Source: an uncultured Gammaproteobacteria bacterium (lineage in GTDB: Bacteria > Patescibacteriota > Patescibacteriia > UBA9570). From it: DNA of 64,000 bases. The stretch is from the NCBI GenBank assembly GCA_964385285.1, contig CAYLOJ010000002.1, positions 559-64,558 on the forward strand. The letters are read 5' to 3'. The position numbers and the translations under genes were made by a program. This document shows, piece after piece, positions 6,188 to 43,250 of the stretch (position 1 is the stretch's first letter; every line of letters begins with the position of its first letter). The notes beneath the pieces are model-generated. The model was not told where the DNA came from and did not search any database. It saw only the letters and a list, made by a program, of their open reading frames with translations.

Positions 6188-7747
6188 ATGAAACAGAAGT
6201 CTAAAACTCCACAACGACGTAAATTACAACGCAGTATCTATGCCGTGGGAGGCTTAGCGCTACCACCGGAAGCTGGCGCCTACGGTTTAGCCCGTTACAG
6301 TCGGTCTGATAAACCAGCCAGAGAGACCTTTACTGCAATGGCTGAAAAAATTCTCGAAGGGAATGACGCGATGAAGCGTTTTTTTGAGATTTTTTATTTC
6401 CAATATGGTCATGCCTCGATTGCTGACTTAGCCCATGTGGGGATGGCGGTAGAAAATATCTCCATGATCGCTGCGATGGATTTAGTGGACGAACAGCTAT
6501 GGGATGGCCAAGAACGTTCTACACGTTATCAACACTTCAGTGAAGATGCCGTGCATGAACCGAACAGCGTGACGAAGAATGCCAAAGTCGCTAAGCAGTA
6601 TCGCACGGGCATTGCCTACCTGATGGCTGAGTATGAAAAGCTGTATCCAGAATTGTTAGCCGCCGTACAAGAGCAAAATCCATTACCGAAAGATTATCCA
6701 GAGGGTGCCTACAAATCAGCTACCAAAGCGCGCGCTTTTGATATGGCACGCTATCTGTTGCCCTTAGCTACGTTGACCAGCGTTGGTCAGATTACCTCTG
6801 GCCGCACCTTAGAGAAGATGATTTCGCGGTTATACTCAAGTGACTATAGTGAAATTCGAGCGATGGCGGATGATCTGAAAACAGCTTGTAATTCTCCAGC
6901 GTTTAACCCGTTCAGCCAAGAGATTGCGAGCGGATTGAAGAAAATTCCGGATGCTAAATTACGTAAACGGTTAGAAAAAATTCTCGCTCCAGGACACCCA
7001 CTACCAACCTTAGTGAAGTACACGGCACCGATGAAGTATCAGATGGAGACAAAAAAAGATCTTCAACAAGCGGCACGTGAATTGTTGAAAATAAAAACGG
7101 TGGATTCGAGTTTTGATGTCCAGGCATTTCATAAACAAGACCCATTGGTGGAGGCTGTGACTACAGCGCTCTATGGCGTAACCCACTATTCCTACAAACA
7201 AATTTACACACAAGTAAAAGAGTGGAGTGAGAAGCGATTGATTGAGGTCTATGAATTAGCCACACGTAAACGAGGCGCGCATGATGAATTACCGCGCTAC
7301 TTAGATACTCATAGTGTGACGATGGATATCTTAATGGATGTGGGTTCTTACCGTGATATGCACCGACATCGTCGTACTATCCAAGTTCCGCAAGATTATA
7401 CTCCAATCCATGGTTACGATACGCATCCTGAAACCGGAAAATATGGTGGTCTCTATCCATATCAAGTCGCCATGGATAATATTTCAGAAACGTTGAAGAA
7501 ACTAGATGCAGTTAATCATGAAGCGGCCATTTATTTAATGCCGATGGGCTTTAAGCGTCGTTCATTGTTCAAGATGGGCTGGAATGAGATTGATTACATT
7601 GGCAAATTGCGTACCGGACCAGGCCGTCATTTATCGTATTGGACGATTGCACTCAGAATGGTTGAAGAGGCCAAAAAATTATCTCCTGTGCGCACACGAC
7701 ATATTCCCACCAAACCGTTATCGATGGATACGGTCTATGAGCGTTAA
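6188..7747 (+). CDS. thyX: ThyX-like (Thy1 family) flavin-dependent thymidylate synthase homolog, atypically long (519 aa)
   Basis: GHASIADLAHVGMAVENIS, QERSTRYQHF, ARYLLPLATLTSVGQITSGRTLEKMI and GSYRDMHRHRRT resemble ThyX blocks (GHFSVLEHASVSF, SQLSQRYV, ARAVLPNATETR..., GNYRAWRHF), recalled from memory of M. tuberculosis ThyX. The canonical RHR of the RHRx7-8S signature is not at the expected position. Confidence 0.5.
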   Translation: MKQKSKTPQRRKLQRSIYAVGGLALPPEAGAYGLARYSRSDKPARETFTAMAEKILEGNDAMKRFFEIFYFQYGHASIADLAHVGMAVENISMIAAMDLVDEQLWDGQERSTRYQHFSEDAVHEPNSVTKNAKVAKQYRTGIAYLMAEYEKLYPELLAAVQEQNPLPKDYPEGAYKSATKARAFDMARYLLPLATLTSVGQITSGRTLEKMISRLYSSDYSEIRAMADDLKTACNSPAFNPFSQEIASGLKKIPDAKLRKRLEKILAPGHPLPTLVKYTAPMKYQMETKKDLQQAARELLKIKTVDSSFDVQAFHKQDPLVEAVTTALYGVTHYSYKQIYTQVKEWSEKRLIEVYELATRKRGAHDELPRYLDTHSVTMDILMDVGSYRDMHRHRRTIQVPQDYTPIHGYDTHPETGKYGGLYPYQVAMDNISETLKKLDAVNHEAAIYLMPMGFKRRSLFKMGWNEIDYIGKLRTGPGRHLSYWTIALRMVEEAKKLSPVRTRHIPTKPLSMDTVYER

Positions 7748-8617: not shown

Positions 8618-9295
8618 CTACTCGCAGTCCGTGTCGCCGAACGTGTCGGCGGCGCCGTCGCAGTCGTCATCAAGGCCGTTGTTGCAGTTCTCGGGCGCGG
8701 CTGGGTTGATGACGTCGCTGGTGTCGTCGCAGTCGTCGCTGGCTGCGCCGTAGCCATCCCCGTCGTTGTCGTCGGTGATGCAGGTGGCGCCCACCTCCCA
8801 GTCCTCATCGAGCACACCGTCACAGTCCTCGTCCTCCTGATCCCCGCATTGCTCGGTGGCACCGGGGTGGATGGACGGATCCTGATCGTTGCAGTCGACG
8901 TCGTACTCATGGCCGTCGAGGTCACGGTCGAAGTCGTTGTCTCCGGCGCAGTTGGAGTCGAGACCGTCGTACCAGATCTCGGGCGCGGCTGGGTTGACGC
9001 TGGCATCGGCATCGTTGCAGTCTCCGCCCGTCCAGCTGGTGCCCGCGGGGAGCACACAGGTGGTGTTGAGGGCGTCGTAGCCGTAGCCATCGTCGTCCTC
9101 ATCCAGGTAGGCGATCTGTTGTAGGCCCTGGTCGATGAGACCATCACAGTCGTCATCGAGGCCGTTGCAGACCTCTGCGGTGGGAGTGCAGGACGGGCCG
9201 GTGTCGGCAACCGTCGCCGTGTCTTCCCCAAGGATCACCACCTTACCGGCGGTGCAGCCCGAGAGTAGACACAGGCACAGAATCATCAGTTTCAT
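8618..9295 (-). CDS. Secreted lipoprotein with MopE-like Cys/Asp-rich putative metal-binding repeats; GC-rich foreign gene
   Basis: Lipoprotein signal (MKLMILCLCLLSGC) preceded by a GGAGG RBS. Repeated CNGLDDDCDG / EDCDGVLDE / NGLDDDCDGAAD motifs. GC about 65%, with overlapping shadow ORFs in every frame. Confidence 0.6.
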   Translation of the reverse strand: MKLMILCLCLLSGCTAGKVVILGEDTATVADTGPSCTPTAEVCNGLDDDCDGLIDQGLQQIAYLDEDDDGYGYDALNTTCVLPAGTSWTGGDCNDADASVNPAAPEIWYDGLDSNCAGDNDFDRDLDGHEYDVDCNDQDPSIHPGATEQCGDQEDEDCDGVLDEDWEVGATCITDDNDGDGYGAASDDCDDTSDVINPAAPENCNNGLDDDCDGAADTFGDTDCE

Positions 9296-9419
9296 GGAAC
9301 CTCCGTTCCTGTTGAGGGTCGTTGCCTGAAAACGCGGATCATTTTTAGCTGACTTTGATGGAACTGTCAACGCTAACTGATGATCAAAATACCCAATTTT
9401 ACTATTGTAAAACCAAGCG

Positions 9420-9448
9420 TTGACAGTTTTTTAGCTCAGCACTATAAT
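9420..9448 (+). promoter_or_regulatory. Consensus sigma70 promoter (TTGACA-17-TATAAT) for tRNA-Asn
   Basis: TTGACA at 9420-9425, a 17-nt spacer, TATAAT at 9443-9448, about 32 nt upstream of the tRNA 5' end. Confidence 0.6.
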
Positions 9449-9480
9449 CACAGGCGTTCTTTGAGTAAAGAATAAACTAT

Positions 9481-9552
9481 TCAGGAGTAGCTCAGCGGTA
9501 GAGCAATACGCTGTTAACGTATGGGTCCTGGGTTCAAATCCCAGCTCCTGAG
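9481..9552 (+). tRNA. tRNA-Asn (anticodon GTT)
   Basis: Manual cloverleaf: acceptor TCAGGAG/CTCCTGA, D-arm GCTC-AGCGGTA-GAGC, anticodon stem ATACG/CGTAT with loop CTGTTAA, T-arm CTGGG-TTCAAAT-CCCAG, discriminator G. 72 nt with no encoded CCA. Confidence 0.9.
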
Positions 9553-9598
9553 CATAAATAAAATCACGCCCATCTGGGCGTGATTTTATTTGATTGTT
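9536..9598 (+). repeat. Direct repeat copy 1 (tRNA-Asn 3' end plus terminator; attL-like)
   Basis: aaatcccagctcctgagcataaataaaatcacgcccatctgggcgtgattttatttgattgttc is repeated at 10702-10767 with about 90% identity. Confidence 0.75.
9562..9591 (+). terminator. Rho-independent terminator of tRNA-Asn
   Basis: Hairpin AATCACGCCCA-tc-TGGGCGTGATT followed by TTTATTT. Confidence 0.7.
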
Positions 9599-9710
9599 CA
9601 AGTAGCTAAGGATTTGAAGGGTATCCGAAGAAAGTGCCGGTGGCACTTTGTGAGGAACCCAGGCCGTGAAGGAACTCTGAGCCGGCTTGCGGCGAAGAGT
9701 AGGTGAACGG

Positions 9711-9729
9711 AAATCCCAGCTCCTCAGGA
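9711..9729 (+). repeat. Third, degenerate partial copy of the tRNA-Asn 3' end (aaatcccagctcctcagga)
   Basis: Matches 16 of 19 nt of the tRNA acceptor/T-arm 3' segment. It lies between the two full repeats. Confidence 0.5.
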
Positions 9730-9801
9730 TATCACCCTACTGTTCTTTGAAGCATTGAGCATGATACACTGTAAACAATTTGATATTAGAAATGAATTCA
9801 A

Positions 9802-10689
9802 ATGAGCGATAAGTTAACACGTCAGAGTATATATTCTCAGATATCTCAGTCAATGCGATCTAGCTTTGAAGAATCAAGACAGCTGCCCCATCCAGGAGAA
9901 AAAGGTAGAGCTGCGGAGCTGGTTTTGCGTAACTTCTTATCAAAACATCTGCCAAAACGTTTTGAAGTTTGCTCAGGTTTTATTTTAGATAAAGAGGATA
10001 ATGTTTCTGGTCAAACAGATGTAATAATCTACGATTCTTTAAATTGCCCAGTCTATTCTGTTCATGATGACCTGAGAATTATTCCAAGTGATAACGTTGC
10101 TGCCGTAGTAGAAGTGAAGTCAACGCTCAGGAATCAAGATTTTAATGATGCAGCGACTAAGGCATCAGTAATAAAGCATTTAGTTAAAACACCTGAACAA
10201 CCATCTAAAGAGATGGTCTTAACCAATACTTATGTTTCTTTGTTTGCATTTGACAGCGACCTTCCAAAGGAGAAAGTATGCGAACTTCATGCCACTTCAG
10301 TAAATGGTCGTGGATTAACTTGGCATCTTGATTCTGTATGCATTCTAGATAAAGTAATTAGCTATACGTCTGTAGAAATCGAACAACAAACACAAGGTCC
10401 ACAACCCATGGAACTTTCAGCCTTGAATCCTGCTGTTACTCGAGATAGATTGACTAAATTTAGTATCAGCGCTGAAGAAAAGAACCAGGACAGTCTAGAA
10501 ATATGGTTGCGTTTACTGCTAGCACACTTATCATTCTTTCGACACCGCGTTGACCATCCTGGCTTTGATTGGGACCGTAGCACACTCACGTGCGTATCTT
10601 TATTTGATATGCCTAGACGAAACCCAGAACGGAATGATCCTTGCTATTGCCTATCAGGCAATAAGTGGAAGTACTGTCATGGCGCTTAG
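9802..10689 (+). CDS. PD-(D/E)xK nuclease-fold protein with a C-terminal SEC-C zinc-binding motif (cargo of the tRNA-flanked cassette)
   Basis: Nuclease-core motifs QTDVIIYD and AAVVEVKSTL (D...E-V-K). The C-terminus (RNDPCYCLSGNKWKYCHGA) matches the SEC-C CxC-x8-CH motif. Low GC (about 38%) and no SD sequence. Confidence 0.55.
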   Translation: MSDKLTRQSIYSQISQSMRSSFEESRQLPHPGEKGRAAELVLRNFLSKHLPKRFEVCSGFILDKEDNVSGQTDVIIYDSLNCPVYSVHDDLRIIPSDNVAAVVEVKSTLRNQDFNDAATKASVIKHLVKTPEQPSKEMVLTNTYVSLFAFDSDLPKEKVCELHATSVNGRGLTWHLDSVCILDKVISYTSVEIEQQTQGPQPMELSALNPAVTRDRLTKFSISAEEKNQDSLEIWLRLLLAHLSFFRHRVDHPGFDWDRSTLTCVSLFDMPRRNPERNDPCYCLSGNKWKYCHGA

Positions 10690-10701
10690 GCTTAAAACCT
10701 A

Positions 10702-10767
10702 AAATCCCAGCTCCTGAGCATAAATAAAATCGCGCCCAGACGGGCGTGATTTTATTTTATTGTTCCC
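10702..10767 (+). repeat. Direct repeat copy 2 (attR-like), including a second copy of the terminator hairpin
   Basis: aaatcccagctcctgagcataaataaaatcgcgcccagacgggcgtgattttattttattgttc. It begins 12 nt after the stop of CDS 9802-10689. Confidence 0.75.
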
Positions 10768-10848
10768 TTGCTGGGCAATGAACCTATTGCACCGCAAGCA
10801 GTGTTTCGACGTATTCACATAGCCAATGGGATAATGTAAAGGCCACCG

Positions 10849-10881
10849 GAAACATCGTCTCCGGTGGCCTTGCCGTGCCTC
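10849..10881 (-). terminator. Candidate terminator hairpin downstream of the GC-rich M23/MopE gene
   Basis: Perfect 12-bp stem AAGGCCACCGGA / TCCGGTGGCCTT with a 9-nt loop. The following U-tract on the minus strand is weak. Confidence 0.35.
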
Positions 10882-10945
10882 GCTTGGTCGACGCCTCGTC
10901 GCCGAGACGCCGACGCCTGTTGGGCACGGTGCCTACCTTCCCCCG

Positions 10946-13729
10946 CTACAGTCCGTTGCCGTAGCTGAAGCTCCAGCTGGCGCTGTTGCTGCAGGTCGAG
11001 CAGGTCCGCGGGATGCTGGTGTTGTTCAGCACGTAGAAGGTACCGCTACGCCGGACGATGATCTCGTCCTTACCGTCTCCGGTCAGGTCGGCGAAGTAGT
11101 AGTCGTCGCTGTCGCCATACCCGTAGGTGAAGTAGAAGTCGTCCCCGCCTTCGTGGGTCTGATCCACCGTGAAGAGGTTGCCCTCCCGGAAGGTCAGGTC
11201 GATCTCTCCGTCACCATTGAAGTCGGCCAGGTAGTAGTGCTGCGTACTGGTACCCCAACCGAAAGGGTAATACCACTCCTCGCCGCCCGCCGCGTTGTTG
11301 TCCACGACGAAGTAGCGAGTCGACCGCTGGATGGCCAAGGCGCCTCCGTTGCCGAAGTAGTGCCCAACATCACCGCTGACGCCGAAGTTGTAGGTGCGAT
11401 CCGTCTCTCCGTCCGCATCCTCGTCGAGGTAGAAGGTGCCGTAGCCGAACACCACCGCCACACCGTCGCCGGTGGAGAAGTAGGTTGCGCTGACACCATC
11501 ACCATAGGCGAAGACGTAGTCGCTGCTGCCGTCGAGGCCCTCATCGCAGAGGAGCATGTCCAGGCGCCGCAGGCACGGGTCGAGGATGCCGTCGTGGTCG
11601 GAGTCGATGAACAGGTACTGATCTTCCGGACCAGTCCAACTGTCGATCACCCACTCGTTGTTGTCCAAGGTGACACCGATCCCGTCGGAGTCATCATCCG
11701 GTTCGTAGTCGATCGCCTGGAAGCAGACGTTGTCGTTCGTGACCGTAGATTGGAGCTGGACCGATTGAGCCGCCTCGCTGAACCACAGCCCTTGGAAGGT
11801 GTCCGTGGCTGAGTCCAGTGTGAGGTCGTAGCACTCCAGCAGATCGCCCGTTGCGTAGGGGCCGCTGTAGCCACAGGCCGTCATCGGCTGTTCGAGACTG
11901 TACGTCACCAACCCCAGCGTGCTGAAGGTGTGGTCGAACGTCAGGGTCAACTGGGTCTGGTCGTGGCTGTTCGCCATGATGCAGGCATAGTTGCCCCAGG
12001 AGTACTGCATCCAATCTCCCTGGTTGAGGGACAGGATGAAGTGTCCGAAGTCCCAGCCACTGGGGATCAAGGTACCGCTCGCCGCTTCGTCAAAGTGTTC
12101 GCCGTCGAGATGATCCAGACCGGTTTCGGTCAAGAAGTCCTCGAAGTCGAGCTCAACTCCGCTCAGAGCGACCGAGTTGTTGTCGATGACGCCATCACAG
12201 TCGTTGTCGACGCCGTCGTACCACTCCCAGCTGTCCGGGTTGATGTTCGCATCGGTGTCGTCACAGTCACCATCGGCGACGCTGTCCCCATCGTTGTCGA
12301 GGTCATTGTCGTCCGCGGCGGCTGAATCCACATCGAGCGCGTCGTCGGTAATGCTGAACGCAGAGTAGATGCAGGTGAGCTGGGAGTTGTTGGTGATGGT
12401 TGCACTGCCCTCGCTCAGATCGTAGTAGACGACCCGTTGGTAGCCAGCGGCGTTGGTGCCGCTGAAGGTCTGCAGGTAGCGGTCTCCGTTCGCGCAGACA
12501 CCCCCCGTGGGGTAGCCGAAGTGCTTGGAGGCACCGTACTTCTCGTACTTGCGCGCGATGGCATAGGAAACGACGTCGTCCCAACCTCCGCTGGTGAACT
12601 CACCCGGTGCGAAGCCGCTCGGGTAGTCGAGCACGTCCACCGGATTCGCTCCGGTGTTGGTGTCGTCCGGGTGGTAGGTCACACGACAGTCCTGGAAATC
12701 CTGCACCCACTTGTGGCCCTTGCCGTAGACGTTGGTGATGGGATTGCCGCAGTACTGCGGATCATGGGACGTGGAGCCCTGCGGACCGTTGGTCTGCAAC
12801 CAGCCGGACCACTGCTGCGCTTGCACAACGTAGGCGTGGTTTGCACCGCCCCAATCGTCGAAGACGACGGCGCCAGTGCAGGAGCCCGTGTAGTCCTGGG
12901 TGTAGAGCGTGGTGTACTCGTAGTTGCCCGTGCGGCAATCCCGACAGGTTGAGGACTGGCTCGGCGTCTGGCCGCTGCTGTAGCCCCACCAGTGCAAGGT
13001 TCCATTGGCGCTGCTGATGCAGATGCCCGGACTCTCCTTGGTGCCCGTCGCCGAGTTCTTCCGCTTGTTGTGCTTGTTGTAGGTACCGAAGTCGGTAGTG
13101 AGAGCGGTGGAGATGAGAGTGGAGGTGGAGGTAGAACTACCAGGGAGAACCGGAGGACACTGAGTCCACAAGTTGTCATCTCCACACCCAGTATCTTCGT
13201 TGTAGATGTCGGGGTAGATTTCCTGAGTGGAATACAGGTCGTAGGGGTCAAGATTTTCACCGCACCCAGGCTGACCGTAGCTATCCTCACTGACTTCGTA
13301 GTGGAGGTGAAGATAGCCATTCGAAGCATTACCACTCTTGCCGGACATACCGAGATAATCACCCACACTGAAATACCCAGAGCTGAACTCGCAGCTCTCA
13401 AGGTGAGCATAGACAGTGTAGTAGGTGTGGGAGCCAGTAGCATAGCTACCCTTAGCGTACCAACCCCAACTGTCGCTCCAACCACACGTGTAGTTACCAT
13501 CATGGGAAGCGGTCACCTCGAAGGTCAACCACTGGCCAGAGGTCCCCTTGCGGTAATCAATGCCGCAATGGTTCGCGGTAGTATAGTCGTAGATCCAACC
13601 CTGCTGAACATAAACAGCAGCATCATTGGTCGGCAAGTACAGATAGTTCGGCGAATCGGCCTTGGCAGGCACAGTGAACAGGAACAGAGCCAAGATGCTC
13701 AGAACGAGGATGCGCAAAGAGCGTTCCAT
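10946..13729 (-). CDS. Secreted multidomain protein: N-terminal M23 (LytM) peptidase, Ser/Thr linker, MopE-like Cys/Asp repeats, C-terminal FG-GAP/VCBS-like repeats; GC-rich foreign gene
   Basis: Signal peptide MERSLRILVLSILALFLFTVPAKA with a GAGGT RBS. M23 motifs YYTVYAHLES...GMSGKSGNASNGYLHLHYEV. MopE-like DGDCDDTDANINPD and WYDGVDNDCDGVIDN. FG-GAP-like DFNGDGEIDL and DLTGDGKDEIIV. GC3 is very high, with shadow ORFs in all frames. Confidence 0.65.
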   Translation of the reverse strand: MERSLRILVLSILALFLFTVPAKADSPNYLYLPTNDAAVYVQQGWIYDYTTANHCGIDYRKGTSGQWLTFEVTASHDGNYTCGWSDSWGWYAKGSYATGSHTYYTVYAHLESCEFSSGYFSVGDYLGMSGKSGNASNGYLHLHYEVSEDSYGQPGCGENLDPYDLYSTQEIYPDIYNEDTGCGDDNLWTQCPPVLPGSSTSTSTLISTALTTDFGTYNKHNKRKNSATGTKESPGICISSANGTLHWWGYSSGQTPSQSSTCRDCRTGNYEYTTLYTQDYTGSCTGAVVFDDWGGANHAYVVQAQQWSGWLQTNGPQGSTSHDPQYCGNPITNVYGKGHKWVQDFQDCRVTYHPDDTNTGANPVDVLDYPSGFAPGEFTSGGWDDVVSYAIARKYEKYGASKHFGYPTGGVCANGDRYLQTFSGTNAAGYQRVVYYDLSEGSATITNNSQLTCIYSAFSITDDALDVDSAAADDNDLDNDGDSVADGDCDDTDANINPDSWEWYDGVDNDCDGVIDNNSVALSGVELDFEDFLTETGLDHLDGEHFDEAASGTLIPSGWDFGHFILSLNQGDWMQYSWGNYACIMANSHDQTQLTLTFDHTFSTLGLVTYSLEQPMTACGYSGPYATGDLLECYDLTLDSATDTFQGLWFSEAAQSVQLQSTVTNDNVCFQAIDYEPDDDSDGIGVTLDNNEWVIDSWTGPEDQYLFIDSDHDGILDPCLRRLDMLLCDEGLDGSSDYVFAYGDGVSATYFSTGDGVAVVFGYGTFYLDEDADGETDRTYNFGVSGDVGHYFGNGGALAIQRSTRYFVVDNNAAGGEEWYYPFGWGTSTQHYYLADFNGDGEIDLTFREGNLFTVDQTHEGGDDFYFTYGYGDSDDYYFADLTGDGKDEIIVRRSGTFYVLNNTSIPRTCSTCSNSASWSFSYGNGL

Positions 13730-31039: not shown

Positions 31040-31232
31040 AGACCCTGGTTTATCCTAAGCCATACCTTTACAACTTTTAGGGGAATCCGGTTAGAATCCG
31101 GAGCTGTGCCGCAACCGTATGTCTGAATGTTAGACGAGCCGGGATACCTCTTATCGTGTATGTTCTCGAGCAAGGACAGACGATCGATGTATCCTCATCT
31201 GTTGTCGTCCTGCTCTCAGCAGGATTTTTTTA
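31040..31232 (+). ncRNA. Cobalamin (B12) riboswitch with a terminator expression platform
   Basis: Core AGGGGAATCCGGTTAGAATCCGGAGCTGTGCCGCAACCGTATG is close to the E. coli btuB leader core (AGGGAATCCAGTGCGAATCTGGAGCTGACGCGCAGCGGTAAGG, as recalled). It is followed by terminator TCCTGCT-ctc-AGCAGGA + TTTTTTT at 31208-31231, 22 nt before the start of CDS 31253. Confidence 0.7.
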
Positions 31233-31252
31233 TTCTCTATCCAAAAGCCGAC

Positions 31253-31879
31253 ATGCTAAAACGCCTCATCACAATTTATCTCCCTATGCTGGTTGTGATT
31301 AGCGTTGCGTTCATCGCTGGCCGCCAATTGTATTACGATAATGATGTCACGTTGGATGATGTAGCATTCGTGGAATCATCGAATACTCTAAATAGCAATG
31401 CAAATGTAGTGCAGCCTGCTGATGAATCATTAAATACAGAGCAGATACCGGAAGATGCAGTACTTGTAAACACTGAAACTGTAGTTGCACCGGTAGATGC
31501 TGTAGAGACTGAGCCAGTCAAGGAGATTGTGGAGCCAGTAGCGGTGACTGAGCCAGAAGCAGAGGTGGTGACACAGAATGTGGTTGTCACGATCAGTGGA
31601 CCGGGGATCACTAAACGTTGTGTGGTGACATACACAGATGATTTATCTGTACATCAGTTGATGCAGCAAGCGAGTCAACAGTGCAATTTTGCTTACCGCG
31701 TTAAAGATTATACCTCTCTCGGTGCGTTTGTGGATGAGCTGGGTGGTGTGACTTCGAGTCGCAAAGAGGGGAGATACTGGATTTACTACGTGAATGGCAA
31801 AAAAGCAAACGTCGGTGTGTCGTCCTATACAGTGGCGCCGGACGATCTGGTGGCCTGGGTGTATGAGCAAGAATATTAA
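31253..31879 (+). CDS. DUF4430 (transcobalamin-like) domain protein, membrane-anchored; putative B12-binding surface protein
   Basis: N-terminal TM (MLKRLITIYLPMLVVISVAFIAG). C-terminus GAFVDELGGVTSSRKEGRYWIYYVNGKKANVGVSSYTVAPDDLVAWVY matches the DUF4430 signature (YW-Y-VNG ... GD-V-W-Y). Lies directly downstream of the B12 riboswitch. Confidence 0.6.
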   Translation: MLKRLITIYLPMLVVISVAFIAGRQLYYDNDVTLDDVAFVESSNTLNSNANVVQPADESLNTEQIPEDAVLVNTETVVAPVDAVETEPVKEIVEPVAVTEPEAEVVTQNVVVTISGPGITKRCVVTYTDDLSVHQLMQQASQQCNFAYRVKDYTSLGAFVDELGGVTSSRKEGRYWIYYVNGKKANVGVSSYTVAPDDLVAWVYEQEY

Positions 31880-35588: not shown

Positions 35589-37259
35589 TTGACTATGCTC
35601 AGTGACGCCAAATTACAACAGATCATCAGTGAAACAAAGGTTGTGCCTGAGGCCGACTTAGCTGAAGCGCTTAGTTTTGCCCAGAAGGAGCAACGTCCAC
35701 TCGCAGATATTTTAGTCGAGCGCGATCTGTTATCCGATGAACAACTTGGTCAGTTGATTGCTGAACACGCCGGTTATGCATTTGTTAATTTGCGGAAGGT
35801 AAGTATTCCTGACGATGTTTTGCGTATTGTTCCAGAAAGCATGGCACGAGCGATGCGTGTCATCGCCTTTGGGCAAACTAGCCAATCCATTCAGTTGGCA
35901 ATGGCTAATCCGTTAGACGTTGCCACAGTTCACTTGATTGAGAAAAAAATAGGCAAGTTAGCAGAGGTAGCATTCGCAACCGATCGCGATGTACGTGACG
36001 CCCTGGGTTACTATAAACGGGGATTACAATTTGAATTTGCAAAGTTAGTGGAAGATAAATTAGGCGGTAACGATGCCACTCCGCCCGTCGTAGAGTTGTT
36101 AGAAATCATGGTGCAGTATGCCTATTTGCAAAAAGCCTCCGATATTCATATTGAGCCCACAGATGACAATGTAGTGGTGCGGTTCCGTGTTGATGGTGTG
36201 CTGCATGACATGGTTAAGTTGCCCAAACATCTCTTGGAAACCTTGATTACACGTATTAAAATTTTAGCTAAACTCCGTACCGATGAACATCGCTCTGCAC
36301 AGGATGGGAAAATGGTACAAAAATTAGAACAAGAAGATCTAGATATTCGTGTTTCCATTCTGCCTGTGTCCGAAGGGGAAAAGGCAGTTTTGCGTTTGTT
36401 ATCTAGTCGATCACGTCAGTATGCATTAGAAGATATTGGCTTTGGATCAAGCGATGTTGAACGCGTACGTAAATATTTGAAACGTCCTCAAGGCATGATT
36501 TTAGTGACTGGACCTACCGGTTCGGGTAAGACGACAACATTGTATGCGTTTTTGAAAATTCTAAATCGCCGTGAGGTGAATATTTCTACGATTGAGGATC
36601 CTGTGGAATATGCGATCGCTGGGATTAATCAAATTCAGGTCAACGCTGCTACTAATCTAACTTTTGCAACTGGCTTGCGCTCCATTGTCCGGCAAGATCC
36701 TGACATTATCATGATTGGAGAAATCCGTGATCAAGAAACAGCTAGTATTGCCGTGAATTCGGCAATGACTGGCCACTTGGTGTTATCCACGTTGCACACG
36801 AATGACGCAGCAACAACGTTGCCACGGTTACTGGATATGCAAGTAGAGCCCTACTTGGTTGCATCTACAGTGAACATCGCCGTGGGGCAACGGTTAGTAC
36901 GAAAAATTTGTACTCAATGTGTGATGAGTGAGGTAGTGACCGGGGATCAGATGAAAGAGTTGATGCAGCAATTCCACTTGGAGAAATATATCAAAAAGGA
37001 TGCGAAGCAGTTACGCTTCTATAAAGGCCGTGGTTGCAACAGTTGTAATCATTCCGGTTACGTAGGTCGAGTAGGTGTATTTGAAGTGCTAGAGATGTCT
37101 ACGGCAATTCGCCAGTTGATTTTAAATCATGCTGATTCCGATCAGATTAAGCAGCAAGCCATTAAGGAGGGGATGACCACTATGTTTGAAGATGGTTTTC
37201 ATAAAGCTTTGTTGGGGGTAACAACCTTAGAAGAGGTTTTACGCGTCGTGGCTGAATAA
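35589..37259 (+). CDS. pilB: Type IV pilus assembly ATPase PilB (GspE family)
   Basis: GSPII_E N-terminal domain, Walker A GPTGSGKTTTLYA, and a tetracysteine motif CTQC...CNSCNHSG. Confidence 0.85.
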   Translation: MTMLSDAKLQQIISETKVVPEADLAEALSFAQKEQRPLADILVERDLLSDEQLGQLIAEHAGYAFVNLRKVSIPDDVLRIVPESMARAMRVIAFGQTSQSIQLAMANPLDVATVHLIEKKIGKLAEVAFATDRDVRDALGYYKRGLQFEFAKLVEDKLGGNDATPPVVELLEIMVQYAYLQKASDIHIEPTDDNVVVRFRVDGVLHDMVKLPKHLLETLITRIKILAKLRTDEHRSAQDGKMVQKLEQEDLDIRVSILPVSEGEKAVLRLLSSRSRQYALEDIGFGSSDVERVRKYLKRPQGMILVTGPTGSGKTTTLYAFLKILNRREVNISTIEDPVEYAIAGINQIQVNAATNLTFATGLRSIVRQDPDIIMIGEIRDQETASIAVNSAMTGHLVLSTLHTNDAATTLPRLLDMQVEPYLVASTVNIAVGQRLVRKICTQCVMSEVVTGDQMKELMQQFHLEKYIKKDAKQLRFYKGRGCNSCNHSGYVGRVGVFEVLEMSTAIRQLILNHADSDQIKQQAIKEGMTTMFEDGFHKALLGVTTLEEVLRVVAE

Positions 37260-37262
37260 CCT

Positions 37263-38327
37263 ATGCGGAATATCGAGCTATCATTTTGGGTGAATCGCAA
37301 GGATGTAGCTTTTTTTACCAAGAATTTTTCCGTGATGCTGGGTGCTGGTTTGACGGTTGTGGAATCGCTGGCCGTTTCAGAAGAACAGACACACGGTAAG
37401 CTACGACGTATTATTCGCAACATGCGTTTATATGTGGAGCAGGGCAATCAATTAGCTGACGCGTTCGCAAAATATCGCCGGCAGTTCTCTCCAGTATTTG
37501 TGGACGTCATTCGTACTGGTGAGTTTTCTGGCAACTTAACGCGTAACGTGCAGCAGTTGGCCAATCGTTTGACGGATGATTTAGAGTTACGGCGCAAGAT
37601 TCGTGGCGCGATGATCTATCCGATGGTCATACTTGCTGGCATTATCGCCCTAGGCACAGTATTATCATTGTTTGTCATGCCCAGATTCATTCGTTTGTTT
37701 AGTTCCCTGGAGGTGGAGTTACCATATTTAACACAGATCACGCTGAAAGTTGCTGGTTGGATGCAAACGTATTGGTGGTGGTTCCTGTTTGCTTGTGTCA
37801 TCGCTGGCATCATCGGCAAGCTATTACTCCGTATTGCTACTCTTGAGCGATTCTGGCATGCCGTGTTGGTGCGACTTCCCATTATCGGTCCGATGATTCG
37901 ATCGATTAATTTAGCTCGGTTCACTGGCACATTAGGTTCACTGTTGAGTAGTGGAGTGCCGATTAGCGAAGCTTTACATTCGGTGGTTCATTCTTGTACC
38001 AATTTATCGTATCAGTATAGTATCCGACGTGCGCTACAGGCTGTAGAAGATGGTGGTAGTTTATCCTCGGTGATTGCGCGAGAGGCATTATTATATCCGC
38101 CGTTAGTAATTCGCATGGTAGCGGTGGGTGAGCGCACGGGGCAACTAGCTGAGTTGCTGAGTTATTTGGGACATTATTATGAAGGAGAAGTAGACAGTAC
38201 GACTAAGCAGTTGGGTGTGTTAATTGAGCCTGTCTTACTATTTGTGATCGGCGCAGTGGTGCTGATTATTGGCTTGGCAGTGATTACCCCGATTTATCAA
38301 TTCACTGCCTCTGTTGGGGCTTTATAA
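37263..38327 (+). CDS. pilC: Type IV pilus platform protein PilC (GspF family)
   Basis: Two GspF-like repeats with 3 TM helices. Lies immediately downstream of pilB. Confidence 0.8.
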   Translation: MRNIELSFWVNRKDVAFFTKNFSVMLGAGLTVVESLAVSEEQTHGKLRRIIRNMRLYVEQGNQLADAFAKYRRQFSPVFVDVIRTGEFSGNLTRNVQQLANRLTDDLELRRKIRGAMIYPMVILAGIIALGTVLSLFVMPRFIRLFSSLEVELPYLTQITLKVAGWMQTYWWWFLFACVIAGIIGKLLLRIATLERFWHAVLVRLPIIGPMIRSINLARFTGTLGSLLSSGVPISEALHSVVHSCTNLSYQYSIRRALQAVEDGGSLSSVIAREALLYPPLVIRMVAVGERTGQLAELLSYLGHYYEGEVDSTTKQLGVLIEPVLLFVIGAVVLIIGLAVITPIYQFTASVGAL

Positions 38328-38329
38328 TT

Positions 38330-38776
38330 ATGGGCGTGGCCCGGGGTTTTTCTTACATTCAACTCCTACTCGTCATCACCATGTTGGCGGTATTGGCTGC
38401 AGTGGCTTCGCCGTATTATTTATCGTGGCAAACTCGTCAGCAAGTGCGTAGTACTAGTGCGATGTTATGGTCAGATCTTCACTATGCGCAAAGTCGAGCC
38501 ATGCAACTTGAACAATCGGACGCATGGGGCGTGCATATAAATCAGAGCCAACATGAATATGTGATTTTTCATGGTTCTACTTATGACAGTAGCGATCTCT
38601 ATAACGAAACAATTACCTATTCAGACGGCGTGACGATTACACCAGATACAGACATTGCATTTGCAGGTTTAACAGGCGCAGTTGCTAGTGACCTTACCTT
38701 AACCATTACGGCTAATGCCTTACCGAGTGAAAGCCGAACCATTACGATCAATGAAGAAGGTCTCATTTCACAATAA
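38330..38776 (+). CDS. Prepilin-type N-terminal domain protein (minor pilin/pseudopilin; Gln rather than Glu at +5)
   Basis: MGVARG^FSYIQLLLVITMLAVLAAVASPYY. Confidence 0.45.
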   Translation: MGVARGFSYIQLLLVITMLAVLAAVASPYYLSWQTRQQVRSTSAMLWSDLHYAQSRAMQLEQSDAWGVHINQSQHEYVIFHGSTYDSSDLYNETITYSDGVTITPDTDIAFAGLTGAVASDLTLTITANALPSESRTITINEEGLISQ

Positions 38777-41700
38777 TTCATCCGGGATATTAATCGTTGA
38801 GGCGGTCATTAGTATTGCTTTATTTGTGATATTTGCAGCCGGAGCGATCTACCTTTTAACTGCTTCTATTTTAACTAGTCGCACCGCACAACGTCATGCC
38901 ACAGCAGCAGCTTATGCGACCGAAGCAATTGAAGCAGTACAAACCATTGACCGGTTAGCTTGGAATGCATTAGCGGATAGTCCAGATAGTACATACGGCT
39001 TGGCTCTATCTGGTGATGATTGGACGCTCACTGCTGAGCCAGATCATCCTGATCTTGCTGGAGACTACACGCGCACCATTCAAATCAGTGATGTCTATCG
39101 TGATAGCAGTAATCTGATCACGGATACGGAGACGGGAAATACATTCGATCCTCATACACGCAAGGTCAATGTTACGATCGATTGGTCAAATGATACTGGT
39201 ACAGCACAGAGTCTAACCACTGCTACCTATTTAACCGATTGGGATGACTCGGCGTTGCAAGAGGATCTGGTGACCGATTGGACAGCGGGAACAGTTGATC
39301 ATTTGCGGGTCAGTAATCTAGATGATGGCGAACTGCAAATAGTACAACCCACTTTAGAGATCGGCACCGTCACCGCCACCAATAGTTGGCAGACCATTAC
39401 GTTATCCAATGAGTATGACGAGGCGGTTGTCGTAGCAAGTGTGTTAGATGGTAATAACCCAAATTCACCGGTGAGTGTACGGGTGCGCAACGTTACGGCC
39501 ACCACCTTTGATCTGCGCTTACAATTTCCAACTGATAACTTTGCACCTAGCACCACGAATAGTGAGCAGGTCAATTATATGGTCATTGAAGCTGGTGTCT
39601 GGACACTGGGAGATGGTAGTACAAAAATTGAAGCGGGGATTGTTCCGTCTGTTTCGCGCGTGAATTGTTCTACCTGTGGTAGCTGGAATCAGGGCACAGA
39701 TGTCTATTTTCAGAGTGGCTTTAGCACGGGTCCTGTAGTGTTACATCAAGTGATGACTGAGAATGATGCTTCGTGGATTACCACGTTTGCGTCGGATGAT
39801 ACCAATGCAGCACTGCCACCTGGCACAGATGGATTTCAAGTGGCATTAAATGGTGCTGAGGTGACTGCTGCGCATAGTGCCGAAGATATCGGCTATATCG
39901 CTTTTCAAAGTGAAACGACAGATCGTTTTGAAGGAGTTAAATTTGAAACCGATCTGACTGGCAATACGGTACGTGGTGCAACGGATGTGCATCGGGTTGA
40001 AAATTTTGATCAAACTTATACTGCCGCACCCATTGTGTTGACTAGCATGTTAACCGCACGTACTACGGAAGGTAACTGGGCTATGTTAGATAGTGTCACA
40101 GCCACGCGTGTCACGCTTTATGCAGATGAAGATCAAACCCTAGATGCAGAACGCACGCATGCTGTTGATTACGCTGGCTATGTGACCTTTGCGACAACCG
40201 GTACGTATTATTTAAACGCGGCCATTACTGCGTATGATGAACCACCCATGGAAGTGGGAGTGATCCGCGGCAGTGCGTCGGGACATATGGAGGTGGGCAC
40301 GACCACGGCGTCGAGTAGTTGGTCAACCATTACATTAACGAATACATACACTAAGCCAGTGGTGATTGTGAGTTTATTGGATGGCAATAATCCGAATAGT
40401 CCAGTTTCCACGCGCGTCAAGAATGCCAGTGGCAATAGTTTTGAGGTGCGTTTAGATTTTCCTAACGATCGCTTTGCGCCGGTCACTACGAATAGTGAGA
40501 CGGTCTATTACATGGTTGTGGAGGCTGGTGTTTGGTTAATGGGTGATGGTAAAACAAAGGTGGAAGCCAATATTGCTGAAGATGTTTCTCGGGTGAACTG
40601 TTTTACCTGTGGTTCATGGAATAATGGTACGCAGATTGTACACACCAGTGGTTACAGTGCCAATCCCGTATTTTTGCATCAAGTGATGAGTGAGAATAGT
40701 TCAGCTTGGATCAGCTCCTTTGCTTCCAATAGTACGGATTATCGTAGCCCACCAGGCACGAATGGTTTTCGCATTGCACTGAACGGTGCTAGTGTCACCT
40801 CCACCCATGCCGCAGAAGACATCGGTTATGTGGTAATGGAGACAGAAAAAGTGGACACTGCTAATAGTATTCAGTATGAGACAGATACCACAGGGATTAG
40901 TGTACGTGGCTTCGACGATGCGCGTTACAGTGAAAGTTTTGATCAAGCCTATACTACAGCTCCATTAGTATTGGTTTCACAGTTAGGCATGCGTGGCACC
41001 GAGGGAAGTTGGGCGATGATAGATAGTATTACTACTACCACCCTCACTATGTATGAAGATGAGGATCAAGCAACCGATCGTGAACGGTCGCACCAAGCGG
41101 AATATTACGCGTATTCGGCATTTGCATCCGCGGGTAGCTTCACTCTAACGGATCAGACGTTTTTGCAAAATCCAGTGAGTATTTCTTTGAATAATACCTA
41201 CACGAATCCCGTGGTCATCACGACTCCATTTTTTACGAATGATCAAAATTCGCCAGCGTCAGTACGGGTGTATGATGTGACTAGTAATAGTTTTACAGCA
41301 AAACTAGATTTTCCAACTGATCGTTTTACACCTACCAATACCAGCTATTCTAACGATGTGTATTATATGGTGATTGAAGCGGGGACCTGGCAAATTGGTG
41401 ATCTGAAGATTGAAGCTCATGTGGACAATATTTCTACTGTGAATTCATTAACGAATGGATGGACCGGCACAACCACAACTTTTGATCATGCCTTTACGGC
41501 TGCACCCATTGTATTGCAACAAGTGATGAGTAATAGTGATACGGCCTGGATTACCACCTGGCTCGCGCGCACGGCTGATCGCACTAATCCTCCTTCCTAC
41601 ACCTCAATGCAGATCGGTTTGAATGCAGCTGAGGTGGCCACAAGTAATGCGCATGGTCCGGAAGATGTGGGTTGGGTCGCCTTTTCGAACATTGGGTCTG

Positions 41701-42338: not shown

Positions 42339-42342
42339 CTGG

Positions 42343-42840
42343 ATGATTAAATTACGTCATGGTTTTTCACTCTTTGAGGTGATTGTGTATATTGCGATCA
42401 TTAGCGTGGTGATGACCGCAGTCTTAAGTATCGTTGCACGCAGTGTGTTAAATCGTGTGAAAGCGGAGGCGCTGTTTAGTGTCACTAGTAGTACTCGCTT
42501 TGCGATGGAACGCATGGTGCAAGATATCCGGGCCGCTGCGGATATTGATGAGACAGATTTAGCCAGTAACGTACTGACGGTCGAATCAGCTCAAGGGGTG
42601 ATTCGGCAGTACGCGGTGATTAATGATCAATTAACTGTCTCTACCAACGGCGCTACTCCCATTGCCCTCACCCCAGACAACCTGATGGTGACCGAGTTTA
42701 GCCTGGCTGATCGCACTACAGTGGGGACTGCTACAACCGCGGTGGAAGTGACCTTAACACTGGAAACGGTCAGTACTAATCCTAGCCCTGAATACCATGC
42801 CGATTTTAGTTTAGAAACTACTGCTACGAGTCGTTTATGA
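42343..42840 (+). CDS. Prepilin-type pseudopilin
   Basis: MIKLRHG^FSLFEVIVYIAIISVVMTAVLSIVA has Glu at +5. Confidence 0.55.
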   Translation: MIKLRHGFSLFEVIVYIAIISVVMTAVLSIVARSVLNRVKAEALFSVTSSTRFAMERMVQDIRAAADIDETDLASNVLTVESAQGVIRQYAVINDQLTVSTNGATPIALTPDNLMVTEFSLADRTTVGTATTAVEVTLTLETVSTNPSPEYHADFSLETTATSRL

Positions 42841-43235
42841 AAATCACGCGAATTTTACCACCAGGCTATGCCGCCTTAATCACTGTAGTGATGGTCATGT
42901 TAACCGTTACAGCCATTGGCTTCACTCTCACGGTGCTTAGTGCTGATAATCTATTAAGTACTCTGCGGTATGATGCCGGCATCCAAACACAAGCTGTGGC
43001 AGACAGTTGCGCATATGAGGCCGCTTTACAGATGCGTGATCTCGGGTTGGCCTATGTGGGTACACATACACTGACTATTGGTGAAGATCAATGCACGATG
43101 ATCGTGACTAATACGAGTGGAACAATCTTGGAGGTAGCGATTGATGCACAGCATGACCAATATCATCGTTTAGTAGAACAGACCATGGACGTCAGTGATG
43201 ATCGTATCTTGCTCTGGCAGGAAGTAGGCGATTAA
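42837..43235 (+). CDS. Hypothetical minor pilus component (membrane-anchored)
   Basis: N-terminal hydrophobic segment (LPPGYAALITVVMVMLTVTAIGF), non-canonical for prepilin. Sits in the pilus operon. Confidence 0.3.
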   Translation: MKITRILPPGYAALITVVMVMLTVTAIGFTLTVLSADNLLSTLRYDAGIQTQAVADSCAYEAALQMRDLGLAYVGTHTLTIGEDQCTMIVTNTSGTILEVAIDAQHDQYHRLVEQTMDVSDDRILLWQEVGD

Positions 43236-43250
43236 GCTACAATTATTTTC

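What the first reader, a model, noticed from the sequence alone, without database searches (positions are those of the whole stretch)
9536..10767. 1.15 kb single-gene cassette bounded by ~63 bp direct repeats of the tRNA-Asn 3' end plus terminator (att-like), carrying a PD-(D/E)xK + SEC-C protein
The last 17 nt of tRNA-Asn together with its terminator hairpin (9536-9598) recur about 90% identical at 10702-10767. That is the classic footprint of site-specific integration into a tRNA 3' end, here giving attL and attR.

The bounded 1.15 kb holds one ORF (9802-10689). It encodes a nuclease-fold core (DVIIYD ... VVEVK) fused to a C-terminal SEC-C CxC-x8-CH zinc knuckle. The ORF is low-GC (about 38%) against a ~45% host, and there is no integrase in the cassette.

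Single-gene PD-(D/E)xK proteins at integration hotspots are often anti-phage or abortive-infection effectors, or mobile-element remnants. I do not recognise this PD-(D/E)xK / SEC-C combination as a named defence family.
Basis: partly seen in the sequence, partly recalled or inferred. Interest (0 to 1): 0.85.

Follow-up and report, generated by a model that had tools for sequence, protein, structure and literature searches.

The report
NucC-like nuclease cassette at tRNA-Asn
A small piece of foreign DNA sits behind the tRNA-Asn gene of an ultra-small (CPR) bacterium, bounded by copies of the tRNA's tail; it carries a lone DNA-cutting enzyme related to the phage-defence nuclease NucC, so it is an uncommon variant of a known kind of defence gene and not a new system.

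Summary

**Repeats.** The last 18 nt of tRNA-Asn plus its terminator (9536-9599) recur at 10702-10765, 59 of 64 identical. A third, 21-nt copy lies at 9711-9731.

**Interval contents.** It holds two things:
- a ~115-nt structured RNA-like element (9609-9722) with no Rfam match, shared with one related genome;
- the 295-aa ORF (9802-10689).

**Host and relatives.** The host is a Candidatus Kerfeldbacteria bacterium. Two relatives have an identical tRNA-Asn. One has neither insert; the other has only the RNA element. The ORF is therefore accessory, and its GC3 is 0.31 against 0.40-0.48 for host genes.

**The protein.**
- It belongs to Pfam DUF6602.
- Its predicted fold matches the cyclic-trinucleotide-activated nuclease NucC over the full length.
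- The D73/E104/K106 active site is intact.
- The adenine-stacking Tyr81 is Asn, and the gate-loop region is not conserved.
- No cyclase gene lies beside it or beside 11 homologues.
- It carries a rare C-terminal SEC-C zinc knuckle.
- A single-gene DUF6602 anti-phage system, Damona, is already published.

**Recombinase and a parallel case.** None of the 30 window ORFs I scanned is a recombinase. The closest full-length homologues sit in a similar ~1-kb cassette flanked by an 87-nt repeat of the mnmG 5' end.

**Verdict.** This is a new variant of a known kind. Interest is moderate.

The parts
9420..9448 (+). Promoter of tRNA-Asn: TTGACA, 17-nt spacer, TATAAT (12 of 12 consensus positions).
   Evidence: The same promoter is conserved in L004 and L009.
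9481..9553 (+). tRNA-Asn (GTT), the target gene of the insertions.
   Evidence: It is 100% identical in L004 and L009.
9536..9599 (+). Repeat copy A: the last 18 nt of the tRNA (from the T-loop AAAT) plus terminator hairpin T_A (9556-9591).
   Evidence: families D1 and I2.
9609..9722 (+). Structured RNA-like element with a three-way junction. The 3' strand of its closing stem is repeat copy B. It has no Rfam family.
   Evidence: Minimum-free-energy fold z-score -3.8 here and -4.8 in L009. Four compensatory base pairs and 96% of cells paired. No Rfam match. The covariance model finds only the window and L009.
9711..9731 (+). Repeat copy B: AAATCCCAGCTCCTcAGgATA, a partial tRNA 3' end without a terminator.
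   Evidence: (family D2).
9764..9801 (+). Leader of the nuclease gene. TGATACACT resembles an extended -10 element and the promoter found at the equivalent place in L004 and L009. ACAATTTGA...TTAGAAATGA resembles the leader of the mnmG cassettes. Both resemblances are tentative.
   Evidence: alignment; 13-14 nt match, reached by 8-11 of 300 shuffles..
9802..10689 (+). 295-aa stand-alone NucC-family (DUF6602) nuclease with a SEC-C tail.
10018..10119 (+). Codons of the catalytic residues D73 (10018-10020), E104 (10111-10113) and K106 (10117-10119). They correspond to the NucC IDx30EAK motif.
   Evidence: Alignments; invariant columns; NucC paper.
10630..10683 (+). SEC-C zinc-knuckle motif (aa 277-294, CYC-x8-CH).
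   Evidence: Pfam PF02810, 26.8 bits against a cut-off of 20.4. It also matches the SecA metal-binding-domain peptides 1sx0 and 1tm6.
10702..10765 (+). Repeat copy C: tRNA 3' end plus terminator T_C (10722-10757). It begins 12 nt after the stop codon.
   Evidence: Reproduced in the Logan contig L001.

Best explanation
This is a small accessory module that accreted at the 3' end of tRNA-Asn in a Candidatus Kerfeldbacteria (CPR) genome.

**How it arose.** The 14-18-nt core AAATCCCAGCTCCT(GAGC), which runs from the T-loop to the tRNA 3' end, was used as a recombination site at least twice. That left three direct copies. Two routes would give this topology. One is a tyrosine-type integrase acting in trans or since lost. 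The other is single-crossover (Campbell-type) recombination of small circles after natural transformation. Which route applied is inferred, not shown.

**Module 1 (9554-9731).** It consists of a terminator and a ~115-nt structured RNA-like element.

**Module 2 (about 9732-10701).** It is a ~1-kb single-gene cassette.

**The protein.** Its product is a stand-alone NucC-family restriction-endonuclease-fold DNase (Pfam DUF6602). The Mg2+-binding active site D73/E104/K106 is intact, and a C-terminal SEC-C zinc knuckle is attached.

**Most likely function.** I think it acts as a single-gene anti-phage or abortive-infection nuclease of the Damona type. It would cut DNA once an unknown cue switches it on, probably through a change in oligomeric state as in NucC. 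It is probably not controlled by cyclic tri-AMP. The SEC-C knuckle would serve as a sensor or tether.

**Shown:** the repeats, the polymorphism among relatives, the family and fold, and the catalytic residues. **Inferred:** the recombination route, nuclease activity, the defence role, and the role of the SEC-C motif.
For: **Repeats and site polymorphism**
- Three copies of the core are present, and the outer pair is 64 nt at 92% identity.
- Relatives with an identical tRNA-Asn show an empty site (L004) and an RNA-element-only site (L009).
- Synteny with those relatives resumes only near window 19900.
- GC3 of the gene is 0.31 against 0.40-0.48 for host genes.

**Protein**
- Pfam DUF6602, E = 2.6e-27.
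- PADLOC: PD_DExK E = 9e-38 and NucC effector E = 3e-27.
- PDB NucC chains match by sequence at E about 1e-12.
- The AlphaFold2 model has mean pLDDT 84.
- Foldseek against PDB gives NucC as the top 14 hits, best E = 1.5e-17, with TM-score 0.70-0.79 normalised by target over about 250 aligned columns.
- D73, E104 and K106 are invariant in 42 homologues and equal the NucC IDx30EAK motif.

**Stand-alone defence context**
- None of 11 homologue loci carries an adjacent CD-NTase or Cas10 gene.
- Instead the neighbours are an integrase with Type ISP restriction-modification and Prim-Pol; Abi_C with DpnII; Shedu SduA_C with a Schlafen-like ATPase; toxin-antitoxin genes; and serine recombinases.
- Damona is a single-gene DUF6602 anti-phage integron cassette that matches the same PD_DExK and CBASS-endonuclease profiles.
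- Rugutis is a single-gene anti-phage protein with a SEC-C motif.

**Comparable cassette elsewhere**
- The closest full-length homologues, P0003 and P0004, sit in a 965-nt cassette flanked by an 87-nt, 90%-identical repeat of the mnmG 5' end.

**Competence genes**
- DprA and type IV pilus genes lie in the window, so uptake of foreign DNA is plausible.
Against: - No integrase or recombinase was found among the 30 window ORFs scanned, and only 64 kb of the genome is visible.
- The relatives used as the empty site are about 70% identical in flanking DNA. This is polymorphism between genera or species, not within a population.
- Terminator T_C is 92% identical to T_A but not to the terminator that is orthologous in L004 and L009. 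A simple two-step integration does not predict this. It needs a 64-bp attP, gene conversion, or a local duplication.
- A 13-14-nt promoter-like match upstream of the gene hints that the left cassette border may lie near 9775 and not at copy B. The match is marginal (8-11 of 300 shuffles reach it).
- Seven of ten homologue loci examined show no flanking repeats.
- No activity data exist for this protein.
- Sequence-level relatedness to Damona itself was not tested.
Confidence: 0.6

Rival explanations
1. The cassette is a self-mobile or semi-autonomous nuclease cassette that behaves like a homing element. The DUF6602 nuclease would cut a conserved host site (the tRNA-Asn T-arm/3' end, or the mnmG 5' end). 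The ~1-kb cassette would be copied in together with a replacement copy of the target end. This keeps the host gene working and removes the cleavage site.
For: - Two different conserved targets carry single-gene cassettes of almost the same size: 965 nt in L098, and 991 or 1166 nt in the window. Their nucleases are each other's closest full-length relatives.
- In both cases the right-hand repeat starts exactly 12 nt after the stop codon, and the ~25-nt leaders share ACAATTTGA.
- P0003 and P0004 (77% identical) sit at the identical junction in mnmG.
- The two mnmG copies differ mostly at third codon positions (6 of 9 differences, from the sequence). This suggests that one copy arrived from another lineage.
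- No recombinase is present in cis in either case.
Against: - Most family members lie in ordinary defence islands or larger mobile elements without flanking repeats.
- NucC, the closest structure, is largely sequence-nonspecific.
- Homing by double-strand-break repair does not by itself produce direct repeats.
- The two mnmG cases may reflect a single old insertion inherited vertically, because flanks and gene have diverged to a similar degree.
Confidence: 0.12
2. The protein is a true NucC-type effector that responds in trans to cyclic tri-AMP. The signal would come from a CBASS or type III CRISPR system encoded elsewhere in the genome.
For: - The fold matches NucC over the full length.
- Arg53, which binds the cA3 phosphates in NucC, is invariant in the family.
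- Other non-catalytic motifs (NCP 81-83, HPGF 252-255) are strongly conserved. They could line an allosteric pocket.
Against: - Tyr81, which stacks on adenine and is essential in NucC, is Asn in this family.
- The stretch corresponding to the gate loop, with its latch residues H136 and Y141, is variable in length and sequence.
- Sequence homology to NucC stops at about residue 130.
- No cyclase gene lies beside the gene in the window or in 11 homologue loci.
Confidence: 0.1
3. The arrangement is not a mobile-element footprint. A local duplication or gene conversion copied the tRNA tail and terminator, and the ORF is simply an acquired or orphan restriction-like gene or a toxin. The middle copy exists only because the RNA element needs that sequence for its closing stem.
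For: - T_A and T_C are near-identical paralogues within this genome, and T_C is unlike the terminator that is orthologous in relatives.
- Copy B forms the 3' strand of stem P1 of the structured element.
- No recombinase was found.
Against: - All three copies begin at the same T-loop position (AAAT) and cover exactly the tRNA 3' end. This is the classic crossover region for tRNA-targeting integrases.
- L009 shows the RNA element bounded by the same 18-bp repeat, and L004 lacks it.
- A second, unrelated locus (mnmG) shows the same repeat-flanked design for the closest homologue.
Confidence: 0.15

Closest known systems
NucC, the cA3-activated endonuclease effector of type III CBASS and type III CRISPR (PDB 6p7p, 6q1h, 6uxf, 7zgv)
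   Same: - Restriction-endonuclease fold over the whole ~240-aa core (Foldseek E = 1.5e-17, TM-score up to 0.79 normalised by target).
- Identical active-site spacing and numbering, D73...E104-x-K106.
- Arg53 is kept.
   Different: - Sequence similarity covers only residues ~15-130.
- Tyr81 is Asn.
- There are no conserved gate-loop latch residues.
- There is no cyclase partner.
- The protein has an extra conserved FFRxxxxHPGF motif and a SEC-C tail.
Damona, a single-gene DUF6602 anti-phage cassette of the Vibrio cholerae chromosomal integron (bioRxiv 10.1101/2024.07.02.601686)
   Same: - Single gene with a DUF6602 domain.
- It matches the same Cas PD_DExK and small CBASS endonuclease profiles.
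- It is carried as a ~1-kb promoter-poor cassette.
   Different: - Damona is an integron cassette with an attC site mobilised by IntI. Here the boundaries are tRNA 3'-end repeats, with no attC or IntI.
- No SEC-C motif is reported for Damona.
- Direct sequence comparison was not possible.
tRNA-targeting integrative elements and their decayed or integrase-less derivatives. Examples are tycheposon arrays with partial tRNA copies (bioRxiv 10.1101/2020.12.28.424599) and, from my own knowledge, cis-mobilisable elements (CIMEs).
   Same: - Direct repeats of the tRNA 3' segment bound each module.
- Several partial tRNA copies lie in tandem downstream of the intact tRNA.
- The region downstream is variable and carries compositionally foreign genes.
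   Different: - The modules are extremely small (175 bp and ~1 kb).
- There is no integrase, excisionase or replication gene.
- The outer repeat extends into the terminator.
Elements that integrate into the 5' end of a conserved gene and supply a replacement 5' end. From my own knowledge, SXT/R391 at prfC is an example.
   Same: The mnmG cassettes of homologues P0003 and P0004 leave a truncated native 5' fragment and supply a new start for the gene.
   Different: - Those elements are about 100 kb and encode their own integrase. Here the whole insert is 965 nt with one gene.
- That gene is translationally coupled (overlapping ATGA) to the truncated mnmG fragment.
Proteins with a SEC-C motif: the SecA C-terminal metal-binding domain, YecA/YchJ, and the anti-phage protein Rugutis (PMC11381338)
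   Same: A CxC-x8-C[H/C] zinc knuckle at a protein terminus.
   Different: - Here it is fused to a NucC-like nuclease. I found this architecture only in P0001, P0002 and P0123.
- Its partner is unknown. Candidates are a ribosome, a SecB-like protein or nucleic acid.

Membership tests
Pfam DUF6602 (PF20247) | Match to the family profile above the curated cut-off. | tested here: met
   95.2 bits against a cut-off of 27; residues 23-127 cover profile positions 2-104 of 104.
NucC (CBASS / type III CRISPR effector) | Restriction-endonuclease fold with the IDx30EAK active site (Asp73, Glu104, Lys106). | tested here: met
   TD73...E104-V-K106 aligns to the NucC motif. These residues are invariant in 42 homologues. 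Foldseek top hits are all NucC. The motif is defined.
NucC (CBASS / type III CRISPR effector) | cA3-binding residues Arg53, Tyr81 and Thr226/Val227. | tested here: not met
   Arg53 is conserved. The position of Tyr81 is Asn81, nearly invariant in the family (NucC YDRQYSP against YDSLNCP here). Thr226 could not be placed because sequence alignment ends at about residue 133.
NucC (CBASS / type III CRISPR effector) | Gate loop with latch residues His136 and Tyr141. | tested here: not met
   Residues 130-142 are variable in length and sequence across the family. The model shows coil there, not a hairpin.
NucC (CBASS / type III CRISPR effector) | Encoded next to a CD-NTase or a Cas10 cyclase. | tested here: not met
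   None was found among 30 window ORFs or beside 11 homologue loci. The rest of the genome was not seen.
NucC (CBASS / type III CRISPR effector) | Homotrimer that forms a hexamer on activation. | not testable with these tools
   Only a monomer model could be made.
Damona (single-gene DUF6602 anti-phage system) | Single gene with DUF6602 that also matches the Cas PD_DExK and small CBASS endonuclease profiles. | tested here: met
   compared with the description.
Damona (single-gene DUF6602 anti-phage system) | Sequence-level orthology to the V. cholerae protein, and demonstrated anti-phage activity. | not testable with these tools
tRNA-targeting site-specific integrative element | Direct repeats made of the tRNA 3' segment at both ends. 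| tested here: met
tRNA-targeting site-specific integrative element | Site occupied in some genomes and empty in related ones. | tested here: met
   L004 is empty; L009 carries the RNA element only; all three have the identical tRNA. The relatives are only about 70% identical in flanking DNA.
tRNA-targeting site-specific integrative element | Integrase or recombinase encoded in the element. | tested here: not met
   The interval holds only the nuclease ORF. No recombinase domain was found in 30 window ORFs.
tRNA-targeting site-specific integrative element | Excision or a circular intermediate. | not testable with these tools
   This needs read-level data from SRR12487046 or PCR.
Integron gene cassette | An attC recombination site at the 3' end, and an IntI/attI platform. 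| tested here: not met
   The 3' boundary is the tRNA tail plus a Rho-independent terminator. By inspection it has no RYYYAAC/GTTRRRY core. No integrase was found.
   Pfam at E up to 1 returns only DUF6602 and SEC-C. PADLOC returns no Shedu model.
SEC-C motif (PF02810) | CxC-x8-C[H/C] zinc-binding motif above the curated cut-off. | tested here: met
   26.8 bits against a cut-off of 20.4, residues 277-294.

The most novel reading that the evidence does not exclude
A subclade of stand-alone NucC-like (DUF6602) nucleases may travel as minimal ~1-kb one-gene cassettes. These would insert into the ends of highly conserved genes (tRNA-Asn 3' end, mnmG 5' end), bring a replacement copy of the target end, and use the host promoter. 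That would make them a new type of integrase-less, homing-like or Campbell-type defence cassette. In addition, the ~115-nt structured element beside the window's gene may be an undescribed CPR non-coding RNA with a tRNA-like 3' end.
Probability: 0.15. Interest if true: 0.8.

Novelty: new variant of a known kind. Interest (0 to 1): 0.5.

Why it matters
- CPR/Patescibacteria have tiny genomes, and little is known about how they defend themselves. A stand-alone NucC-fold nuclease that has lost the cyclic-nucleotide contacts and gained a SEC-C zinc knuckle is an example of a signalling effector simplified into a one-gene system. This is the same trend reported for integron cassettes such as Damona.
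- The nested tRNA-tail repeats, together with the parallel mnmG cassette, suggest a very small way of packaging and moving such genes without a recombinase in cis. If this is general, it would help explain how streamlined, naturally competent bacteria exchange defence genes.
- The adjacent structured RNA-like element is an unexplained extra that could be tested directly by RNA-seq.

Tried and rejected
- **Rfam on the RNA element.** Three Rfam 15 scans (permissive on 9300-11000 and on the L009 element, gathering threshold on the whole window) gave no family for the 9609-9722 element.
- **Collection scans for the RNA element.** The exact 18-mer GTGAAGGAACTCTGAGCC gave 0 hits in viral contigs. 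It gave 15 hits in JGI metagenome contigs, all chance matches without the flanking element.
- **Covariance model R1 of the element.** It finds only the window and L009 among 24 sources.
- **Flanking repeats in other homologue loci.** None were found at L100, L106, L108, L109, L110 or L116. L111 has 92-nt repeats, but around the neighbouring gene. The repeat-flanked design is therefore not general to the family.
- **Viral contigs.** Only 4 weak relatives were found. The family is not typically phage-borne in that collection.
- **Integrase search.** 30 ORFs were tested against Pfam and none is a recombinase.
- **Shedu or other named PADLOC systems.** Rejected.
- **Integron attC reading of the 64-nt repeat.** Rejected by inspection.
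- **Promoter homology upstream of the gene, compared with L004 and L009.** Only marginal: 8-11 of 300 shuffles reach the score. I keep it as tentative.
- **Extension of the A/C repeat past 64 nt into the start of the RNA element.** About 10 of 16 positions match by eye. This is not significant and is not claimed.
Full report
**1. The observation**

ARAGORN and Rfam place tRNA-Asn(GTT) at 9481-9553. It lies behind a perfect TTGACA-17-TATAAT promoter at 9420-9448.

Positions 9536-9599 and 10702-10765 share 64 nt at 92% identity, 1166 nt apart. The repeat starts at AAAT in the T-loop, covers the rest of the tRNA, and continues through a 36-nt terminator palindrome.

The 14-nt core occurs three times in the window. 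With up to two mismatches, 0.44 matches are expected by chance, and none of 100 shuffles reaches three.

The terminator arm occurs only in these two hairpins. The idea that this is an ordinary terminator found at many sites is therefore rejected.

An independent Logan assembly of run SRR12487046 reproduces window 9730-10952. That covers the gene, copy C, its terminator and the downstream junction.

**2. Host and site polymorphism**

The neighbouring ThyX gene finds its closest relatives (67-81% amino-acid identity) in Candidatus Kerfeldbacteria and Patescibacteria MAGs. tRNA-Asn is syntenic there, and it is 100% identical in L004 and L009.

- In L004 the tRNA and one terminator are followed directly by a promoter and a small membrane-protein gene.
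- In L009 the order is tRNA, terminator, a ~115-nt element, a second copy of AAATCCCAGCTCCTGAGC, a second terminator, and then the same promoter and gene.
- The second terminator and the promoter in L009 are clearly orthologous to those of L004 (score 54, 0 of 300 shuffles reach it).

L009 therefore carries a 175-bp insert bounded by 18-bp direct repeats. The window carries the same insert (85% identical) plus the ORF and a further repeat copy. This gives three occupancy states at one tRNA.

Synteny between the window and these relatives resumes only near 19900. The stretch in between is a patchwork:

| Feature | GC3 |
|---|---|
| The ORF (9802-10689) | 0.31 |
| Two flanking genes with MopE-motif / M23-peptidase domains | about 0.78 |
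| The next two genes downstream | 0.33-0.36 |
| Core host genes | 0.40-0.48 |

The tRNA-Asn region is a hotspot for foreign DNA.

**3. The middle element**

Window 9609-9722 and L009 11998-12113 fold into the same three-way junction.

- The fold energies are -53.4 and -60.1 kcal/mol, with z-scores of -3.8 and -4.8.
- Between the two copies, four base pairs show changes on both sides, and 96% of cells pair. When the partners are slid by one to three columns, only 30-51% pair.
- The 3' strand of the closing stem is the tRNA-like core, copy B.
- No Rfam 15 family matches it.

With only two examples I treat it as a probable structured RNA of unknown function. It may be a mini-element, or a relic of one.

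**4. The protein**

*Family.* Pfam gives DUF6602 (E = 2.6e-27) and SEC-C. PADLOC gives the CRISPR-associated PD_DExK profile (E = 9e-38) and NucC effector profiles, but only for the first ~130 residues. PDB sequence searches hit only NucC chains.

*Fold.* An AlphaFold2 model built on 42 homologues has mean pLDDT 84. In Foldseek against PDB its top 14 matches are all NucC. The best E-value is 1.5e-17, with TM-score 0.70-0.79 normalised by target over about 250 aligned columns. Type II restriction enzymes follow far behind. The whole NucC fold is therefore present, not only the catalytic half.

*Active site.* D73, E104 and K106 are invariant in the family and coincide with the NucC IDx30EAK motif.

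*cA3 contacts.* Of the contacts described for NucC:
- Arg53 is kept.
- Tyr81 is Asn.
- The gate-loop region is variable in the family.

*Neighbours.* No cyclase gene lies near the gene or near any of 11 homologue loci. Those loci show instead:
- a tyrosine-integrase element with Type ISP restriction-modification and Prim-Pol;
- Abi_C, a resolvase, an NADase and DpnII;
- a Schlafen-like ATPase and Shedu SduA_C;
- PIN or Zeta toxin-antitoxin modules and serine recombinases.

*Literature.* The literature search shows that DUF6602 is the domain of Damona, a single-gene anti-phage cassette from the Vibrio cholerae integron. Damona is described as matching the same two profile families.

*SEC-C tail.* The fusion is rare. 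Among the best hits from 1.84 billion representative proteins, only P0002 and P0123 share it. A SEC-C motif also occurs in the lactococcal anti-phage protein Rugutis.

**5. A parallel cassette**

The closest full-length homologue is P0003 (45% identity). Its gene lies at L098 8001-8843 and is also a one-gene insert. An 87-nt direct repeat, 90% identical and 965 nt apart, flanks it. The repeat is the 5' end of mnmG.

- The upstream copy is a truncated 36-codon fragment. Its TGA overlaps the nuclease ATG.
- The downstream copy continues into full-length mnmG.
- P0004 (77% identical to P0003) sits at the identical junction in another assembly.
- In L098 and in the window, the right-hand repeat begins exactly 12 nt after the stop codon.
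- The ~25-nt leaders share ACAATTTGA.

This is suggestive of a conserved minimal cassette. It is not general, however. Seven of ten homologue loci examined have no such repeats.

**6. Mechanism**

Shown:
- repeated use of one core site at the tRNA 3' end;
- the accessory status of the ORF;
- an intact NucC-type catalytic centre;
- the absence of a partner gene.

Inferred:
- The modules entered by site-specific recombination, with the integrase in trans or lost, or by single-crossover recombination of small circles. DprA and type IV pilus genes in the window make DNA uptake plausible.
- The protein is a stand-alone DNase that acts in defence or abortive infection and is switched on by something other than cA3.
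- The SEC-C knuckle acts as a sensor or tether.

One point remains unresolved. Terminator T_C is a close paralogue of T_A, and it does not resemble the terminator that is orthologous in relatives. A plain two-step integration does not predict this. It requires a 64-bp attP, gene conversion, or a local duplication.

**7. Verdict**

The nuclease belongs to a catalogued family with a published single-gene defence member. What is new is the SEC-C fusion, the CPR host, and the very small cassette bounded by nested repeats. I rate it a new variant of a known kind, interest 0.5.

The most novel reading is that these are integrase-less, homing-like one-gene cassettes that target conserved gene ends, with an undescribed RNA alongside. 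I give that about 15%.

Noticed in passing
window 9609-9722; L009 11998-12113: A ~115-nt three-way-junction RNA-like element lies between the tRNA-Asn terminator and the nuclease gene. It has compensatory base changes between its two known copies and a tRNA-like 3' end. It has no Rfam family and was not found elsewhere.
   Followed up: partly
window 8618-9370 (-) and 10946-13729 (-): Two genes flanking the tRNA locus have GC 59-62% and GC3 about 0.78 in a 46% GC genome. They encode secreted proteins with MopE-type Cys/Asp-rich metal-binding repeats, and one also has an M23 peptidase domain. They look like imports from a high-GC organism.
   Followed up: partly
L098 7891-8942 (ENA ERZ27249619 k141_119090); L115 (Logan SRR26549046): A DUF6602 homologue is inserted in the 5' end of mnmG/gidA between 87-nt direct repeats (90% identical). 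The truncated 36-codon mnmG fragment is translationally coupled (overlapping ATGA) to the nuclease gene. The same junction is found in a second assembly whose nuclease is 77% identical.
   Followed up: partly
L111 4038-4129 and 4893-4984: A 92-nt direct repeat (77% identical, 855 nt apart) brackets the unknown gene just upstream of another DUF6602 homologue. It may be a cassette-array-like arrangement.
   Followed up: no
window 9730 (start of Logan contig L001): The independent Logan contig begins exactly one base before the end of repeat copy B. The shared core is only 14 nt, shorter than I expect the assembler's k-mer to be (k = 31, from my own knowledge). The break could reflect strain heterogeneity at this junction or simply low coverage.
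   Followed up: no
window 31081-31148: A cobalamin riboswitch (Rfam RF00174, 38 bits, partial model match) lies immediately upstream of, and overlaps the start of, a DUF4430-domain gene (31127-31879).
   Followed up: no
window 9362-9374 / 9416-9428: A perfect 13-nt inverted repeat (AACTGTCAACGCT / AGCGTTGACAGTT) overlaps the -35 box of the tRNA-Asn promoter and a divergent promoter-like site. A weak sub-threshold Rfam hit to 'Bacillus-plasmid RNA' (28.8 bits against a gathering score of 31) covers it.
   Followed up: no
window 35589-44765 and 50759-51634 (-): Type IV pilus / T2SS-F and PilM genes and DprA are present. They are consistent with natural competence in this CPR bacterium.
   Followed up: no
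window 6188-7747: The ThyX homologue is 519 aa, and its relatives in Patescibacteria, Bryobacterales and Chloroflexota match along nearly the full length. By my recollection this is about twice the usual ThyX length, so it may be a duplicated or fused form.
   Followed up: no
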